Shown: positions 33,681 to 36,886 of the stretch, piece after piece
Layout: each line of letters begins with the position of its first letter
Numbering within the stretch: the first letter of the stretch is position 1
Source: Candidatus Babeliales bacterium
GTDB lineage: Bacteria > Babelota > Babeliae > Babelales > JACPOV01
Reading direction: 5' to 3'
NCBI GenBank assembly: GCA_050250855.1
Contig: JBFWNW010000002.1
Location: 69,925 to 133,924, forward strand
Length of the DNA: 64,000 nt
Position numbers and translations under genes: made by a program
The notes under the pieces: model-generated
What the model was told of the DNA's origin: nothing
What the model saw: only the letters and a program-made list of their open reading frames with translations
Database searches by the model: none

Positions 33681-35117
33681 ATGAAGAATCATTTTAAAAA
33701 ATTACTATTGTTCGGATTACTCGGTGCAATGCCCACAATTTTTGCTGAGAAAATAAAGCTTGAATCAAGCAATGACAAAAAGTTCGAAATCGAAAAAAAA
33801 GCCGCAGAACAATCAATAACTATTAAAAACATGTTAGCAGATATAGGTGAAGCAACTGATCAACCAATTCCTTTGCCCAATATAGATGGAGCAACGTTGG
33901 GGCATATGGTAGAATTTCTTACAAACATAGATAAAAATCCGAAAAAATATAAAAATCCTCAAGAACTAATTACTTTGATTAAAAATAAAAATTTAGATCT
34001 TGAAAATCTTATAAAAATAGTTAATGCAACAAATTATCTTGATATACCTACGCTCCTTGATGCTGCAACTACAGTTTTAGCAGAATATATCAATACCAAT
34101 CCAAGCAATCTTGAAGAAAAAGTCAAAAAACTTCCTTTAGATATTCTAAAACTTGTTATGCAAAAATTAAATTTTAAAGAAACACCATTCAAAACACTTA
34201 TGGAAGATAGATCTGTCACTTCAGTAGCATGGTCACCAGATAGCAAAAAGCTTGCATCAGGCTCAGATGACGGTATCATAAAAACATGGGATACCAATAC
34301 CTGGCAAAAGACACCTCTTAAAGGGCATACATCCTATGTCCATTCAGTAGCATGGTCACCAGATGGCACCAAGCTTGCATCAGGCTCATATGATGATAAA
34401 ACCATAAAAATATGGGATGCCAATAACGGGAAAGAGCTCAAAATTCTTAAGGGGCATACAGGCGATATCATTTCAGTAGCATGGTCACCAGATGGCACTA
34501 AGCTTGCATCAGGCTCAAATGACGAGACCATAAAAATATGGGATGCAAAAAACTGGAAAAAGCTCCAAACTCTTACGGGGCATGAAGGCGCGATTAATTC
34601 AGTAGCATGGTCACCAGATGGCACTAAGCTTGCATCAGGCTCACATGACGAGACCATAAAAATATGGAATGCAAAAAATGGCACAGAGCTCCAAACCCTT
34701 ACAGGGCATACAGCTGAGGTCACTTCAGTAGCATGGTCACCAGATGGCACTAAGCTTGCATCAGGCTCACATGACAAAACCATAAAAATATGGGATGCCA
34801 ATAACGGGAAAGAGCTCCAAATTCTTAGGGGGCATAAAGATTCTGTCTATTCAGTAGCATGGTCACCAGATGGCAAAAATCTTGCATCAGGCTCAGATGA
34901 CAAAACCATAAAAATATGGAATACCAATACCTGGAAAGAGCTCCAAACTCTTACAGGGCATGAAGGCGCGATTAATTCAGTAGCATGGTCACCAGATGGC
35001 ACTAAGCTTGCATCAGGCTCACATGACAAAACTATAAAAATATGGGAACGAGAGTCTGAAATAGGAAAAAAATTACAAGAAGTTATAAAAGAAAAAGAAA
35101 AAACAACCAAAATCTAA
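33681..35117 (+). CDS. Secreted SKP1-like (BTB/POZ) / F-box-like / 7xWD40 fusion protein, copy 1
   Basis: AAGGAGA SD. Signal peptide [54 protein letters not shown]...[12 protein letters not shown] aligns with SKP1. [13 protein letters not shown] follows, then 7 repeats of GH..V.[15 protein letters not shown].TIKIW. Confidence 0.85.
   Translation: [478 protein letters not shown]
34200..35045 (+). repeat. Seven tandem ~126-bp coding repeats (WD40 blades)
   Basis: tcagtagcatggtcaccaga recurs at 34221, 34344, 34473, 34599, 34725, 34851 and 34977. Confidence 0.95.
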
Positions 35118-35261
35118 AACAAGAACTGCAGCTGGCAATGCATGAAATTGATTTCTTAAATAAAGAATTACAATCATTGCAAAGTGAGCTGGATAGATTG
35201 GTAAAAATGCTGGGATAATCTAAAAGTTTATCGCAAAATTAGAAACTTTTGCAGTTTTATA

Positions 35262-35379
35262 CTTCGATTCGGGTCAAAACCCTTGCTCCCGTCGCCCCCA
35301 AGGCTACATCGGACACCGCAGGGCGAACGTTTATATTAAAGCCGTTTGTGCTGAGTTTATCCAAGCATTCGAACGGCAG
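35262..35379 (-). repeat. GC-rich MITE-like palindromic element, short copy
   Basis: The reverse complement gccgttcgaatgcttggataaactcagcacaaacgg...cgttcgccctg matches 41988.. (gccgttcgaatgcttcgacaagctcagcacgaacgg...cgttcgccctg). GC content is far above the surroundings. Confidence 0.75.
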
Positions 35380-35446
35380 TTAAAGGATATTCTTGCTTTT
35401 TATATAAAGAATATGATGTACTTTCTATATAAAAAAAAGGAGAACC

Positions 35447-36886
35447 ATGAAGAATCATTTTAAAAAATTACTATTGTTCGGATTACTCGGTGCAATGCCT
35501 ACAATTTTTGCTGAGAAAATAAAGCTTGAATCAAGCGATGACAAAAAGTTCGAAATCGAAAAAAAAGCCGCAGAACAATCAATAACTATTAAAAACATGT
35601 TAGCAGATATAGGTGAAGCAACTGATCAACCAATTCCTTTGCCCAATATAGATGGAGCAACGTTGGGGCATATGGTAGAATTTCTTATAAACATAGATAA
35701 AAATCCTCAAGAACTAATTACTTTGATTAAAAATAAAAATTTAGATCTTGAAAATCTTATAAAAATAGTTAATGCAACAAATTATCTTGATATACCTACG
35801 CTCCTTGATGCTGCAACTACAGTTTTAGCAGATCATATTAATGCTACGCAAACAGCTATTAATGATTTTAAAGACAAACTTCCTTTAGATATACTAAAGC
35901 TTCTTGTGCAAAAAATACCAGGAGGAACGTTTAAAGAAACGCCATTCAAAACACTTATGGGGAATACGAACACGGTCTATTCAGTTGCATGGTCACCAGA
36001 TGGCACTAAGCTTGCATCAGTCTCAGATCTCAAGACCATAAAAATATGGGATACCAATACCTGGAAAGAGCTCCAAACCCTTACAGGGCATACAGCCGCG
36101 GTCGATTCAGTAGCATGGTCACCAGATGGCAAAAATCTTGCATCAGGCTCAAGTGACACAACCATAAAAATATGGAATACCAATACCTGGAAAGAGCTCC
36201 AAACTCTTAAAGGGCATACAGCCGTGGTCACTTCAGTAGCATGGTCACCGGATGGCAAAAAGCTTGCATCAGGTTCACATGACAATACCATAAAAATATG
36301 GAATACCAATACCTGGAAAGAGCTCCGAACTCTTACAGGGCATACAGCCGTGGTCACTTCAGTAGCATGGTCACCGGATGGCACTAAGCTTGCATCAGGT
36401 TCACATTCACCTGACAATACCATAAAAATATGGGATGCGAATACCTGGAAAGAGCTCCAAACTCTTACAGGGCATACAGCCGCGCTCACTTCAGTAGCAT
36501 GGTCACCAGATGGCACTAAGCTTGCATCAGGTTCAAATGCATATAGCAACAATACCATAAAAATATGGGATACCAATACCTGGAAAAAGCTCCGAACTCT
36601 TAAGGGGGATACAGCCGCGATCACTTCAGTAGCATGGTCACCAGATGGCAAAAATCTTGCATCAGGCTCAAATGACAAAACCATAAAAATATGGAATGCA
36701 AAAAATGGCACAGAGCTCCAAACTCTTAAAGGGCATACAGCCGCGGTCGATTCAGTAGCATGGTCACCAGATGGCACTAAGCTTGCATCAGGTTCATGGG
36801 AGCTAAAAATATGGGAACGAGAGTCTGAAATAGGAAAAAAATTACAAGAAGTTATAAAAGAAAAAGAAAAAACAACCAGAACCTAA
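35447..36886 (+). CDS. Secreted SKP1-like (BTB/POZ) / F-box-like / 7xWD40 fusion protein, copy 2
   Basis: Same signal peptide and SKP1-like N-terminal domain as copy 1. [13 protein letters not shown], then 7 WD40 blades, some with 2-3 aa loop insertions (HSPDN, NAYSNN). Confidence 0.85.
   Translation: [479 protein letters not shown]
35965..36815 (+). repeat. Seven tandem ~126-bp coding repeats (WD40 blades), copy 2
   Basis: Recurring gcatggtcacc[ag]gatggca...cttgcatcagg...accataaaaatatgg units. Confidence 0.9.

What the first reader, a model, noticed from the sequence alone, without database searches (positions are those of the whole stretch)
33681..36886. Two tandem secreted SKP1-like (BTB/POZ) + F-box-like + 7xWD40 fusion proteins: candidate single-chain mimic of a host SCF ubiquitin-ligase adaptor/receptor
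Seen in sequence: both ORFs open with a Sec-type signal peptide ([24 protein letters not shown]). The next ~125 aa align with eukaryotic SKP1 as I recall it. IKLESS[ND][49 protein letters not shown] matches human SKP1 [76 protein letters not shown] matches [25 protein letters not shown]. The C-terminal SKP1 helices that grip F-boxes are absent. In their place is LPLDILKL[VL].QK, which resembles the LPxEIL opening of F-box helix 1. Seven WD40 blades follow directly. Established knowledge: the SKP1 BTB fold docks on CUL1, and F-box/WD40 proteins such as FBXW7 and beta-TrCP supply substrates. Bacterial F-box effectors are known, for example Legionella AnkB and Agrobacterium VirF. Inference: a fused SKP1 and WD40 propeller could plug a bacterial substrate-binding propeller straight into a host cullin without needing host SKP1. 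I do not recall this architecture being described, but I cannot check databases.
Basis: partly seen in the sequence, partly recalled or inferred. Interest (0 to 1): 0.9.

Follow-up and report, generated by a model that had tools for sequence, protein, structure and literature searches.

The report
Bacterial secreted SKP1-like WD40 fusion proteins
A bacterium that parasitises protists carries two neighbouring genes that fuse an export signal, a copy of the eukaryotic SKP1 adaptor and a WD40 propeller, so it may plug its own target-binding module directly into the host's ubiquitin-tagging machinery.

Summary
Two tandem genes (33681-35117 and 35447-36886, 74% identical) lie on a 275-kb contig of a Candidatus Babeliales (Dependentiae) genome. 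Each encodes a Sec-type signal peptide, a real SKP1 homologue and a 7-bladed WD40 propeller. The SKP1 evidence: Pfam Skp1_POZ E 1e-16 to 1e-18, hhalign against eukaryotic SKP1 E 9e-27, and SKP1 chains as all top 50 fold matches. Homology runs through helix H6 and keeps the Cul1-contact PxPN motif. The F-box-gripping helices H7/H8 are not detectable. The propeller is the highly repetitive bacterial type, not FBXW7-like.

The genes belong to an apparently undescribed family: signal peptide, SKP1-like domain, then a variable WD40, LRR, Lcl_C or repeated SKP1 module. Members occur in Babeliales and on a contig that looks like Myxococcota. Between the two paralogues the SKP1 module is almost identical. 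The linker and WD40 diverge with dN/dS about 1.1, mostly at top-face positions.

Best reading (about 0.5): a secreted one-piece mimic of a CUL1 substrate receptor. CUL1 binding, delivery to the host and the targets are all untested. The closest precedents are bacterial F-box effectors and Protochlamydia BTB-LRR proteins.

The parts
33517..33586 (-). 70-nt copy of the 3' end of the HAD hydrolase gene. It forms the left arm of a direct repeat that brackets the whole gene pair.
   Evidence: family D5: 91% identical to 37007-37076. The mechanical ORF 33501..33692(-) ends with the HAD C-terminal peptide.
33616..33680 (+). Upstream region of gene 1, including the ribosome-binding site AGGAG at 33672-33676. 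It is identical to the region upstream of gene 2 (35382-35446).
   Evidence: (D2, 99%)
33681..35117 (+). Gene 1: 478-aa signal peptide - SKP1-like - WD40 protein (GenBank MGE4168476.1, annotated 'hypothetical protein', Candidatus Babeliales bacterium)
33681..33746 (+). Gene 1 signal peptide (aa 1-22, predicted cleavage IFA|EK)
   Evidence: Read from the sequence (n-region with K2, K6, K7; 13-residue hydrophobic core; A at -1). N-terminal hydrophobic segments recur across the bacterial family and are absent from eukaryotic SKP1.
33747..34100 (+). Gene 1 SKP1-like domain (aa 23-140; equivalent to SKP1 beta1 through helix H6). It includes the PxPN motif at 33870-33881 and NYLDI at aa 118-122.
   Evidence: PxPN-Cul1 link from PMC1257465
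34101..34190 (+). Gene 1 linker (aa 141-170) with two short predicted helices. It contains LPLDILKL, which gives a sub-threshold, partial F-box resemblance.
34191..35051 (+). Gene 1 seven-bladed WD40 propeller, built from 126-nt repeats
   Evidence: (D1)
35052..35117 (+). Gene 1 C-terminal lysine-rich helix and stop codon
   Evidence: helix at mature residues 438-455
35060..35218 (+). Out-of-frame ORF (52 aa, coiled-coil-like ...QELQLAMHEIDFLNKELQSLQSELDRLVKMLG) that overlaps and follows the end of gene 1. The same element follows gene 2 at 36829-36987.
   Evidence: 98% identical between the copies (D3)
35224..35381 (.). Unique, relatively GC-rich spacer between the two tandem units
   Evidence: single copy in the window; no Rfam match; fold z-score -0.8
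35447..36886 (+). Gene 2: 479-aa paralogue with the same architecture. Signal peptide 35447-35512; SKP1-like domain 35513-35848; linker 35849-35950; WD40 35951-36820.
36997..37731 (-). HAD-family hydrolase gene. Its 3' end (37007-37076) is the right arm of the flanking direct repeat.

Best explanation
These are two paralogous host-directed effectors of an intracellular Babeliales (Dependentiae) bacterium. Each works as a one-piece substitute for the SKP1 plus F-box-protein pair of a eukaryotic SCF ubiquitin ligase.

Proposed steps:
1. The Sec signal peptide takes the protein out of the bacterial cytoplasm (shown only as a sequence feature). It then leaves the cell by a type II-like route or in outer-membrane vesicles (inferred).
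2. In the host, the SKP1-derived domain docks on the N-terminal domain of host CUL1, using the retained SKP1 surface: the PxPN motif in strand 3 and the ANYLDI motif in helix H5 (inferred from motif conservation).
3. The domain lacks recognisable H7/H8 and there is no real F-box. The short helical linker therefore holds the bacterial-type WD40 propeller directly where an F-box protein's receptor domain would sit (inferred).
4. The top face of the propeller recruits host proteins for ubiquitylation by CUL1-RBX1-E2 (inferred).

The two copies share an almost identical docking module but differ in the linker and on the propeller's top face, so they probably recognise different targets. The same docking module is joined to LRR, lectin-like (Lcl_C) or further SKP1-like modules in relatives. 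It therefore behaves as a portable cullin handle.
For: SKP1 identity of the N-terminal domain:
- Pfam Skp1_POZ scores E 1.7e-16 and 7e-18.
- The PDB sequence search returns only SKP1 proteins, down to 1e-5, with Elongin C at 0.14.
- hhalign against 20 eukaryotic SKP1 sequences gives E 9e-27 and covers SKP1 residues 1-127.
- The AlphaFold domain model (pLDDT 89) matches SKP1 chains in all top 50 PDB hits.

Retained docking motifs: PLPN and A-x-NYLD are at least 90% conserved across 13 bacterial-type and 20 eukaryotic or giant-virus sequences. Stogios et al. 2005 state that the Skp1 PxPN motif is involved in Cul1 interaction.

Real bacterial genes:
- Gene 1 is on a 274,718-bp Candidatus Babeliales contig.
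- Both genes have an AGGAG ribosome-binding site.
- They sit among housekeeping genes: epimerase, HIT, HAD, M23 peptidase, UvrC, ClpB.

Export signal fits the lineage: in the Dependentiae isolate Chromulinavorax, 44% of CDS and 78% of ankyrin proteins carry signal peptides and are presumed to be secreted effectors (PMC6561590). The Babela paper makes the same argument (PMC4378268).

Modular family:
- The exhaustive search found signal peptide plus SKP1-like fused to WD40, LRR, Lcl_C or multiple SKP1-like domains.
- Precomputed Pfam confirms Skp1_POZ+LRR_8 and Skp1_POZ+Lcl_C, in bacterial contexts rich in ankyrin genes.
- A second Babeliales genome also has a tandem SKP1-WD40 pair, as does a metagenome contig.
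- WD40 and LRR are the receptor classes of FBXW and FBXL proteins (established knowledge).

Constant handle, variable receptor:
- Between the paralogues the 5' module is 99-100% identical, while the linker and WD40 are 67-98% identical.
- dN/dS is 0.48 for the docking module and about 1.1 for the linker and WD40.
- Repeat-to-repeat variation concentrates at GHxxxVx and SGS-x-D positions. From my own knowledge these are the top-face hotspot positions of WD40 repeats.

Defined geometry: the full-length model has pLDDT 92.5 and pTM 0.77, which suggests a fixed orientation between the two domains.
Against: - No binding to CUL1 was predicted or measured. The tools cannot model complexes.
- A Sec signal peptide delivers a protein only to the periplasm. 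No secretion apparatus or translocation signal was tied to these genes.
- The conserved PxPN and NYLDI residues could be kept for folding rather than for cullin contact.
- Helices H7/H8 and the F-box are missing, so the position of the propeller relative to CUL1-RBX1 is unknown and may not allow ubiquitin transfer.
- Fusion partners such as Lcl_C (an adhesin domain) and LRR also fit extracellular binding proteins.
- Short family members with no receptor domain, and multi-SKP1 proteins, fit a sequestration role better than substrate recruitment.
- dN/dS near 1 could reflect relaxed constraint or misaligned repeats rather than diversifying selection.
Confidence: 0.5

Rival explanations
1. Cullin decoy or inhibitor. 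The SKP1-like domain binds host CUL1 but brings no substrate for ubiquitylation. By occupying the SKP1 site it blocks assembly of host SCF ligases, for example to stabilise host proteins or to blunt ubiquitin-based defence. The WD40 only localises or anchors the protein.
For: The family includes secreted proteins that are little more than the SKP1-like domain (P0016 132 aa, P0028 161 aa, P0117 174 aa). It also includes chains with two to three SKP1-like domains and no receptor module (P0003, P0006, and the second gene on L004). H7/H8 and the F-box are absent, so a productive SCF geometry is not guaranteed.
Against: Most long members carry classical substrate-receptor modules (WD40, LRR). The receptor part diversifies between paralogues while the handle stays constant, which a plain plug would not need.
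Confidence: 0.18
2. Extracytoplasmic binding protein. After Sec export the protein stays in the periplasm or on the cell surface. The SKP1-derived BTB/POZ fold serves only as an oligomerisation or scaffold domain for a WD40, LRR or lectin-like binding module (adhesin or invasin), with no contact with cullins.
For: A Sec-type signal peptide is the only targeting feature seen. Fusion partners include Lcl_C, the C-terminal domain of a Legionella adhesin, and LRRs as in internalins. BTB/POZ folds often self-associate, and the best PDB match is a Skp1 dimer structure (6v88).
Against: The domain is specifically SKP1, not a self-associating BTB class. Its best-conserved residues are the SKP1 signature motifs, including the one reported to contact Cul1. 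In Dependentiae even ankyrin-repeat proteins, which act inside host cells, mostly carry signal peptides.
Confidence: 0.15
3. One reading: SKP1 plus an internal F-box helix plus WD40. LPLDILKL would act as F-box helix 1 and fold back into the SKP1 H5-H6 groove, making a covalently closed SKP1-F-box unit.
For: Pfam F-box matches gene 1 residues [18 protein letters not shown] at E 0.09. Related members have LPKEIRN or LPSDLL at the same place, and LP is invariant in the 7-sequence subfamily alignment.
Against: The score of 13.2 bits is below the 20.5 cut-off. Only 18 of 43 profile positions are covered. There is no hit in gene 2's N-terminal region or in the six relatives tested. There is room for only one helix, not the three-helix F-box. 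The [TL]P-x-[ED]-I pattern equally resembles the N-caps of SKP1's own H7/H8 (TPEEIR, TPEEE), and MAFFT aligns it with H7.
Confidence: 0.1
4. Not functional or not bacterial: a eukaryotic contaminant in the metagenome-assembled genome, or a decaying pseudogene pair.
For: Both copies are followed by an out-of-frame coiled-coil ORF, which suggests a past frameshift at the 3' end. WD40 dN/dS is about 1.1.
Against: Both reading frames are intact over 478-479 aa. Both have bacterial ribosome-binding sites. They are embedded in a 275-kb bacterial contig among housekeeping genes and their GC content is close to that of the window. The same architecture recurs in other bacterial contigs.
Confidence: 0.03

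Closest known systems
Eukaryotic SKP1 (SCF adaptor; Pfam PF03931 + PF01466)
   Same: Homologous from strand 1 through helix H6, with about 30-40% identity (35% to truncated Dictyostelium Skp1A in the fold match). It has the same fold, the PxPN motif and the ANYLDI motif.
   Different: It has a signal peptide and lacks detectable H7/H8 (no PF01466). The acidic loops are replaced by short basic ones. It is covalently fused to a receptor domain instead of binding F-box proteins. It is encoded by a bacterium.
Bacterial F-box effectors (Legionella AnkB/LegU1, Agrobacterium VirF, Ralstonia RipG/GALA, Orientia Ank proteins)
   Same: Bacterial proteins with eukaryote-derived SCF parts joined to repeat domains (ankyrin, LRR). 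They are thought or shown to redirect host CUL1 ligases. Many come from amoeba-associated bacteria (PMC4209131; titles).
   Different: Those proteins mimic the F-box protein and need host SKP1. The protein here mimics SKP1 itself and has no valid F-box, so it would bypass host SKP1. The known examples use type III or IV secretion, whereas this one has a Sec signal.
Protochlamydia PEX1 family (N-terminal BTB + C-terminal LRR; Domman et al. 2014, PMC4209131)
   Same: It is an expanded family in amoeba-associated bacteria. One chain carries a cullin-adaptor-type POZ fold at the N-terminus and a repeat receptor at the C-terminus, with tandem duplicates and birth-and-death evolution.
   Different: PEX1 is described as BTB, the CUL3-type adaptor, with type III secretion signals. 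The domain here is SKP1-type: it hits Skp1_POZ, gives no BTB hit at E up to 10, and all fold hits are SKP1. No named Protochlamydia protein appeared among the top 120 hits of the family-profile search. Whether PEX1 is related was not tested directly.
Eukaryotic and poxviral BTB-Kelch / MATH-BTB CUL3 substrate adaptors
   Same: They work on the same principle proposed here: cullin docking and substrate recognition in one polypeptide (PMC1257465).
   Different: They are a different POZ subfamily, bind a different cullin (CUL3), act as dimers with a BACK/3-box, and are not SKP1-derived.
Giant-virus SKP1 homologues (Pandoravirus, Pithovirus, Solumvirus, Bodo saltans virus and others)
   Same: They are SKP1 genes encoded by parasites of protists.
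   Different: The two Pandoravirus proteins with Pfam data have both PF03931 and PF01466. The viral hits listed are short SKP1-family proteins (154-254 aa), and no signal peptide or fused receptor domain was seen in the one viral sequence aligned (P0239).
Highly repetitive bacterial WD40 propellers (Nostoc 2ymu, Thermomonospora 5yzv, WRAP-T designs)
   Same: The propeller part is 44-53% identical to them, with TM-score 0.97-0.98 to the single-propeller chains and 0.48 normalised to the 577-residue 2ymu. It shows the same near-identical 42-aa repeats.
   Different: No SKP1-like domain or signal peptide is reported for those entries in the search output.

Membership tests
SKP1 family | N-terminal Skp1_POZ domain (PF03931) above the curated cut-off | tested here: met
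   60.6 and 65 bits against a cut-off of 21.9
SKP1 family | Closer to SKP1 than to other BTB/POZ classes (Elongin C, BTB-ZF, T1) | tested here: met
   SKP1 at 1e-16 against Elongin C at 0.14.: all top 50 fold matches are SKP1.: hhalign E 9e-27.
SKP1 family | PxPN motif in strand 3 (reported Cul1 contact) and ANYLDI in helix H5 | tested here: met
   PLPN at aa 64-67 and NYLDI at aa 118-122 in both genes. Both motifs are at least 90% conserved in the 33-sequence alignment. Role of the motif from PMC1257465.
SKP1 family | C-terminal helices alpha7/alpha8 that bind the F-box (PF01466) | tested here: not met
   No PF01466 hit at E up to 10. hhalign ends at SKP1 residue 127. All 115 top hits with both domains annotated are eukaryotic or viral SKP1-type, whereas the bacterial-type hits have PF03931 only.
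SKP1 family | Physical binding to the CUL1 N-terminal domain | not testable with these tools
   No complex prediction or experiment is available here
F-box proteins (FBXW class) | F-box domain (PF00646/PF12937) above the cut-off, about 40 residues in three helices | tested here: not met
   gene 1 gives E 0.09 and 13.2 bits against 20.5, covering profile positions 3-20 of 43. Nothing was found in gene 2 or in six relatives. Only one helix fits in the space.
F-box proteins (FBXW class) | C-terminal WD40 propeller as the substrate receptor | tested here: inconclusive
   A 7-blade WD40 is present. It is nearest to repetitive bacterial WD40s, not to FBXW7, beta-TrCP or Cdc4. A receptor role was not tested.
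BTB-type single-chain cullin adaptors (CUL3 type, including Protochlamydia PEX1) | BTB domain (PF00651 type) joined to a receptor domain in one chain | tested here: not met
   The single-chain layout is met. The POZ domain, however, is Skp1_POZ, and no BTB family hit appeared at E up to 10.
Dependentiae Sec-exported eukaryote-like proteins (presumed effectors) | N-terminal signal peptide plus a eukaryote-type interaction domain, encoded in a Dependentiae genome | tested here: met
   Signal peptide read from the sequence. Babeliales origin. The pattern is described in PMC6561590 and PMC4378268. Secretion itself was not tested.
Highly repetitive bacterial WD40 propellers | Seven near-identical 42-aa repeats and a fold match to 2ymu/5yzv | tested here: met

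The most novel reading that the evidence does not exclude
Protist-infecting bacteria from at least two phyla (Babeliales, and a lineage whose UvrB is closest to Myxococcota) carry a so far undescribed class of effector. A portable SKP1-derived 'cullin handle' behind a Sec signal is recombined with interchangeable receptor modules: WD40, LRR and lectin-like Lcl_C. The resulting one-piece CUL1 substrate receptors would need neither host SKP1 nor an F-box. They might therefore escape the host's normal control of SCF assembly. Fast-evolving propeller faces would retarget them to new host proteins.
Probability: 0.4. Interest if true: 0.85.

Novelty: new variant of a known kind. Interest (0 to 1): 0.72.

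Why it matters
All known bacterial mimics of SCF ligases copy the F-box protein and depend on host SKP1. A bacterial copy of SKP1 itself, fused directly to a receptor, would be a different point of entry into cullin-RING ligases. It would turn the two-part CUL1 system into a CUL3-like one-piece design.

It would give Dependentiae, a widespread phylum with almost no characterised effectors, a concrete host target that can be tested.

It would also be a natural minimal scaffold (about 120 residues of SKP1 plus a designable WD40) for engineered targeted protein degradation.

The family also shows how a eukaryotic domain, once acquired, is shuffled with bacterial repeat domains.

Tried and rejected
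Searches that gave little or nothing:
- The word-indexed protein search with the N-terminal 178 aa found nothing. With the family profile it was swamped by eukaryotic SKP1.
- The first genome-contig scan found nothing. The 25-sequence alignment was too diverse to make search patterns. The second scan used a narrow pattern and gave one Babeliales locus. The taxonomic range of the family is therefore poorly sampled.
- Most of the 80 metagenome loci turned out to be eukaryotic or viral SKP1 genes. Only L014, L016, L017, L029, L031 and L084 are of the bacterial type.
- Cluster look-ups returned no organism names for relatives.
- A tblastn search of the plasmid collection found nothing.

Tests that did not support an idea:
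- F-box membership was tested with Pfam on the linkers of eight family members and rejected as sub-threshold.
- Homology of the post-H6 helices to SKP1 H7/H8 was considered, because MAFFT aligns KLPLDILKL with KTPEEIRKTF. hhalign does not support it.
- Conserved synteny with the HAD gene between the window and L001 was considered. The two HAD proteins share only 37% identity over 64 aa, so it is not claimed.
- The GC-rich spacer between the copies has no Rfam match, no second copy in the window and no unusual fold.
- Promoter and terminator scans were no better than shuffled sequence.
- No tRNA gene lies nearby as an integration site.

Things that could not be run:
- The afdb50 fold library was unavailable.
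- A fusion-construct trick to model the CUL1 complex was rejected.

Full report
WHAT IS THERE

Window positions 33681-35117 and 35447-36886 (+ strand) hold two intact ORFs of 478 and 479 aa. The proteins are 74% identical. They form a tandem duplication with a period of about 1766 nt.

Gene 1 is identical to GenBank MGE4168476.1. That record is a 'hypothetical protein' on a 274,718-bp contig of a Candidatus Babeliales bacterium MAG, phylum Dependentiae/TM6. Cultured members of this lineage are obligate intracellular parasites of amoebae and other protists (PMC4378268, PMC6561590).

The genes are bacterial, not contaminant.
- Each has AGGAG upstream of its ATG.
- GC content is about 37%, against 35% for the window.
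- The neighbours are housekeeping genes: UDP-GlcNAc 2-epimerase, a HIT protein, a HAD hydrolase, an M23 peptidase, UvrC and ClpB.
- A profile built from the family finds only these two copies in the window.

DOMAIN ANATOMY

1. Residues 1-22 (MKNHFKK / [13 protein letters not shown] / FA|EK) have the charged, hydrophobic and small-residue layout of a Sec signal peptide. This is read from the sequence; no predictor was available.

2. Residues 23-140 are a true SKP1 homologue.
   - Pfam Skp1_POZ scores E 1.7e-16 and 7e-18.
   - phmmer against the PDB lists SKP1 proteins only, with Dictyostelium Skp1A at 1.2e-16, human SKP1 at 2e-15 and Elongin C at 0.14.
   - hhalign of a 7-member family alignment against 20 eukaryotic SKP1s gives 99.7% probability and E 9e-27. 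It covers the mature protein's residues 1-119 against Dictyostelium Skp1 residues 1-127, which means through helix H6 and no further.
   - An AlphaFold model of the domain (pLDDT 89, pTM 0.81) hits SKP1 chains in all top 50 PDB matches.
   - PLPN (the Skp1 'PxPN' motif) and A-x-NYLD are at least 90% conserved across 13 bacterial-type plus 20 eukaryotic or viral sequences. Stogios et al. 2005 say the PxPN motif is involved in Cul1 interaction.

3. Residues 141-170 form two short predicted helices. The SKP1 C-terminal domain PF01466 (helices alpha7/alpha8, which hold the F-box) is not detected.
   - The match occurs in gene 1 only, and six relatives give none.
   - The motif equally resembles the TPEEI N-caps of SKP1's own H7/H8, and MAFFT pairs it with H7.
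   - I therefore treat it as a linker of unresolved origin, not as an F-box.

4. Residues 171-457 form a 7-bladed WD40 propeller (Pfam E 2e-98, 7 repeats; 28 strands in a model with pLDDT 92.5 and pTM 0.77).
   - Its nearest structures are the 'highly repetitive' bacterial propellers and designs derived from them: 7big, 5yzv and 2ymu, at 44-53% identity.
   - FBXW7, beta-TrCP and Cdc4 are not among the top 50 matches.
   - The protein is therefore a chimera of a eukaryote-derived adaptor domain and a bacterial-type repeat domain.

5. A lysine-rich C-terminal helix follows.

A FAMILY, NOT A ONE-OFF

An exhaustive HMMER search of 1.84 billion representatives with the N-terminal 178 aa gave 939 hits. 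Among the best 150, besides ordinary eukaryotic SKP1 of about 160 aa, is a set with an N-terminal hydrophobic signal-like segment, a SKP1-like domain without the H8 motif, and a variable C-terminus:
- WD40: P0093, P0126, P0130, P0027, P0065, P0152, P0068
- LRR: P0064, P0135, P0140, P0146, P0114, P0052, P0008
- Lcl_C/DUF1566: P0025, P0078
- two or three SKP1-like domains in one chain: P0003, P0006
- short forms: P0016, P0028, P0117

Further points on the family:
- Precomputed Pfam confirms Skp1_POZ+LRR_8 and Skp1_POZ+Lcl_C. The surrounding genes are bacterial (RuvB, FtsW, UvrB, toxin-antitoxin, transposases) and often rich in ankyrin genes.
- A second Babeliales genome (L001) has two tandem SKP1-WD40 genes. 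So does metagenome contig L029. L031 and L084 are further WD40 members.
- The contig with the Lcl_C variant has 51.5% GC. Its UvrB is closest (66-72% identity) to named Myxococcota/'Deltaproteobacteria' MAG proteins. The family therefore reaches beyond Dependentiae.
- In a domain-only comparison, family members are mostly each other's nearest neighbours. They are only slightly closer to each other (35-60% identity) than to eukaryotic SKP1 (35-47%). One acquisition versus several is not resolved.
- Giant viruses of protists also encode SKP1 family proteins, and the Pandoravirus proteins checked carry both SKP1 Pfam domains.

EVOLUTION OF THE PAIR

The two units are 99-100% identical from 65 nt upstream of the start through helix H6, apart from one 18-nt indel. 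They are 67-78% identical in the linker and 75-98% across the WD40. They are 98-100% identical again from the last codons to about 100 nt past the stop.

Nei-Gojobori estimates:
- signal peptide plus SKP1 part: dN/dS 0.48, pS 0.04
- linker: dN/dS 1.12, pS 0.26
- WD40: dN/dS 1.12, pS 0.14

The unequal synonymous divergence points to gene conversion of the ends, or swapping of the middle, and not to selection alone.

Across the 14 repeats the scaffold ([15 protein letters not shown], TIKIW) is invariant. Variation concentrates in GHxxxVx, SGS-x-D and D-x-T. From my own knowledge of WD40 hotspot analyses, these positions correspond to the ligand-binding top face. Caveat: the repeats may be misaligned between paralogues.

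MECHANISM

The best-supported reading combines four findings: specific SKP1 homology with retained Cul1-linked motifs, loss of the F-box-binding part, direct fusion to receptor-type repeat domains, and an export signal.

Signal peptides are also carried by most ankyrin-repeat proteins, the presumed effectors, of the Dependentiae isolate Chromulinavorax. There, 44% of CDS and 78% of ankyrin proteins have one.

On this reading the proteins are exported, reach the host cytosol, dock on CUL1 in place of SKP1, and present a bacterial propeller as substrate receptor.

Shown here: the domain identities, the motif conservation, the family modularity and the pattern of divergence. Inferred: secretion beyond the periplasm, CUL1 binding, productive geometry and the substrates. 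I put this reading at about 0.5.

Rivals:
- a CUL1-capping inhibitor, which fits the short and multi-SKP1 members (0.18)
- an extracytoplasmic binding protein that uses the POZ fold as a scaffold, which fits the Sec signal and the Lcl_C and LRR partners (0.15)
- an artefact or pseudogene (0.03)

COMPARISON WITH KNOWN SYSTEMS AND NOVELTY

It works like a single-chain cullin adaptor (BTB-Kelch, MATH-BTB) and like bacterial F-box effectors (AnkB, VirF, RipG). It is not a member of either group, because both the F-box and BTB membership tests fail. It is a SKP1 family derivative that fails the PF01466 criterion.

The nearest bacterial precedent is the Protochlamydia PEX1 BTB-LRR family (Domman et al. 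2014). That paper stated that Parachlamydiaceae were the only prokaryotes known to harbour BTB.

Ten full-text searches found no description of bacterial SKP1-like proteins. These included 'bacterial Skp1', 'SKP1 mimic' and Skp1 plus Dependentiae. The Babela, TM6 and Chromulinavorax genome papers mention F-box, WD40, LRR, RING and deubiquitinases, but not SKP1-like domains. The library holds only open-access papers, so absence is not proof.

I rate this a new variant of a known kind: host ubiquitin-ligase mimicry by eukaryote-like effectors. Interest is 0.72.

Noticed in passing
window 33517-33586 and 37007-37076: A 70-nt direct repeat (91% identical) made of the 3' end of the HAD hydrolase gene brackets the whole 3.4-kb SKP1-WD40 gene pair. 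This looks like the scar of an insertion or recombination event at the end of the HAD gene. It is not explained by a simple tandem duplication, which would put the fragment between the two copies.
   Followed up: partly
window 35060-35218 and 36829-36987: An out-of-frame 52-codon ORF overlaps and follows the stop codon of each gene. It encodes a clean coiled-coil-like peptide (…KQELQLAMHEIDFLNKELQSLQSELDRLVKMLG) and is reached through A-rich runs. It could be an ancestral C-terminal coiled coil cut off by a frameshift, a frameshift site, or a homopolymer assembly error present in both copies.
   Followed up: partly
window 35224-35381: A 158-nt spacer between the tandem units is unique in the window and locally GC-rich (…GGGTCAAAACCCTTGCTCCCGTCGCCCCCAAGG…) in a 35% GC genome. 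It has no Rfam match, and its predicted fold is no better than shuffled sequence (z-score -0.8).
   Followed up: yes
window 34334-34801(-), 35977-36777(-) and shorter antisense ORFs: Long antisense ORFs (155 and 266 aa, repeating 'PSGDHATE') run through the WD40 repeats. They are a mechanical by-product of the 126-nt repeat and are not genes.
   Followed up: partly
L001 1123-4461; L029 375-2501; L004 6001-10094: Family members are repeatedly found as adjacent tandem pairs in other genomes: two SKP1-WD40 genes in a second Babeliales MAG and in a metagenome contig, and two Skp1_POZ genes (778 aa with several SKP1-like domains, and 464 aa) on L004. This suggests ongoing local duplication.
   Followed up: partly
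P0027, P0130, L001 1123-2697 (C-termini): Several WD40-type relatives end in short basic tails (…ETKKRKKE, …EKKHKKGEE, …PTKRRRGAQ) that look like nuclear localisation signals. The two window proteins end in KEKEKTTKI and KEKEKTTRT, which are less NLS-like.
   Followed up: no
L006 6001-7781: A Skp1_POZ + Lcl_C (DUF1566, Legionella collagen-like adhesin C-terminal domain) fusion lies next to a stand-alone Lcl_C gene. The contig has 51.5% GC, and its UvrB is closest to Myxococcota MAGs. The SKP1-like handle is therefore not confined to Dependentiae.
   Followed up: partly
window 32873-33538: The 221-aa ORF directly upstream of the pair has no Pfam match at E up to 1. Its function and its relation to the pair are unknown.
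   Followed up: partly
window about 9674-30685 (- strand): A long run of co-oriented genes lies upstream. The two checked are a UDP-glucose/GDP-mannose dehydrogenase and a UDP-GlcNAc 2-epimerase, followed on the + strand by a PMT-like membrane glycosyltransferase. This is probably a surface-polysaccharide gene cluster.
   Followed up: partly
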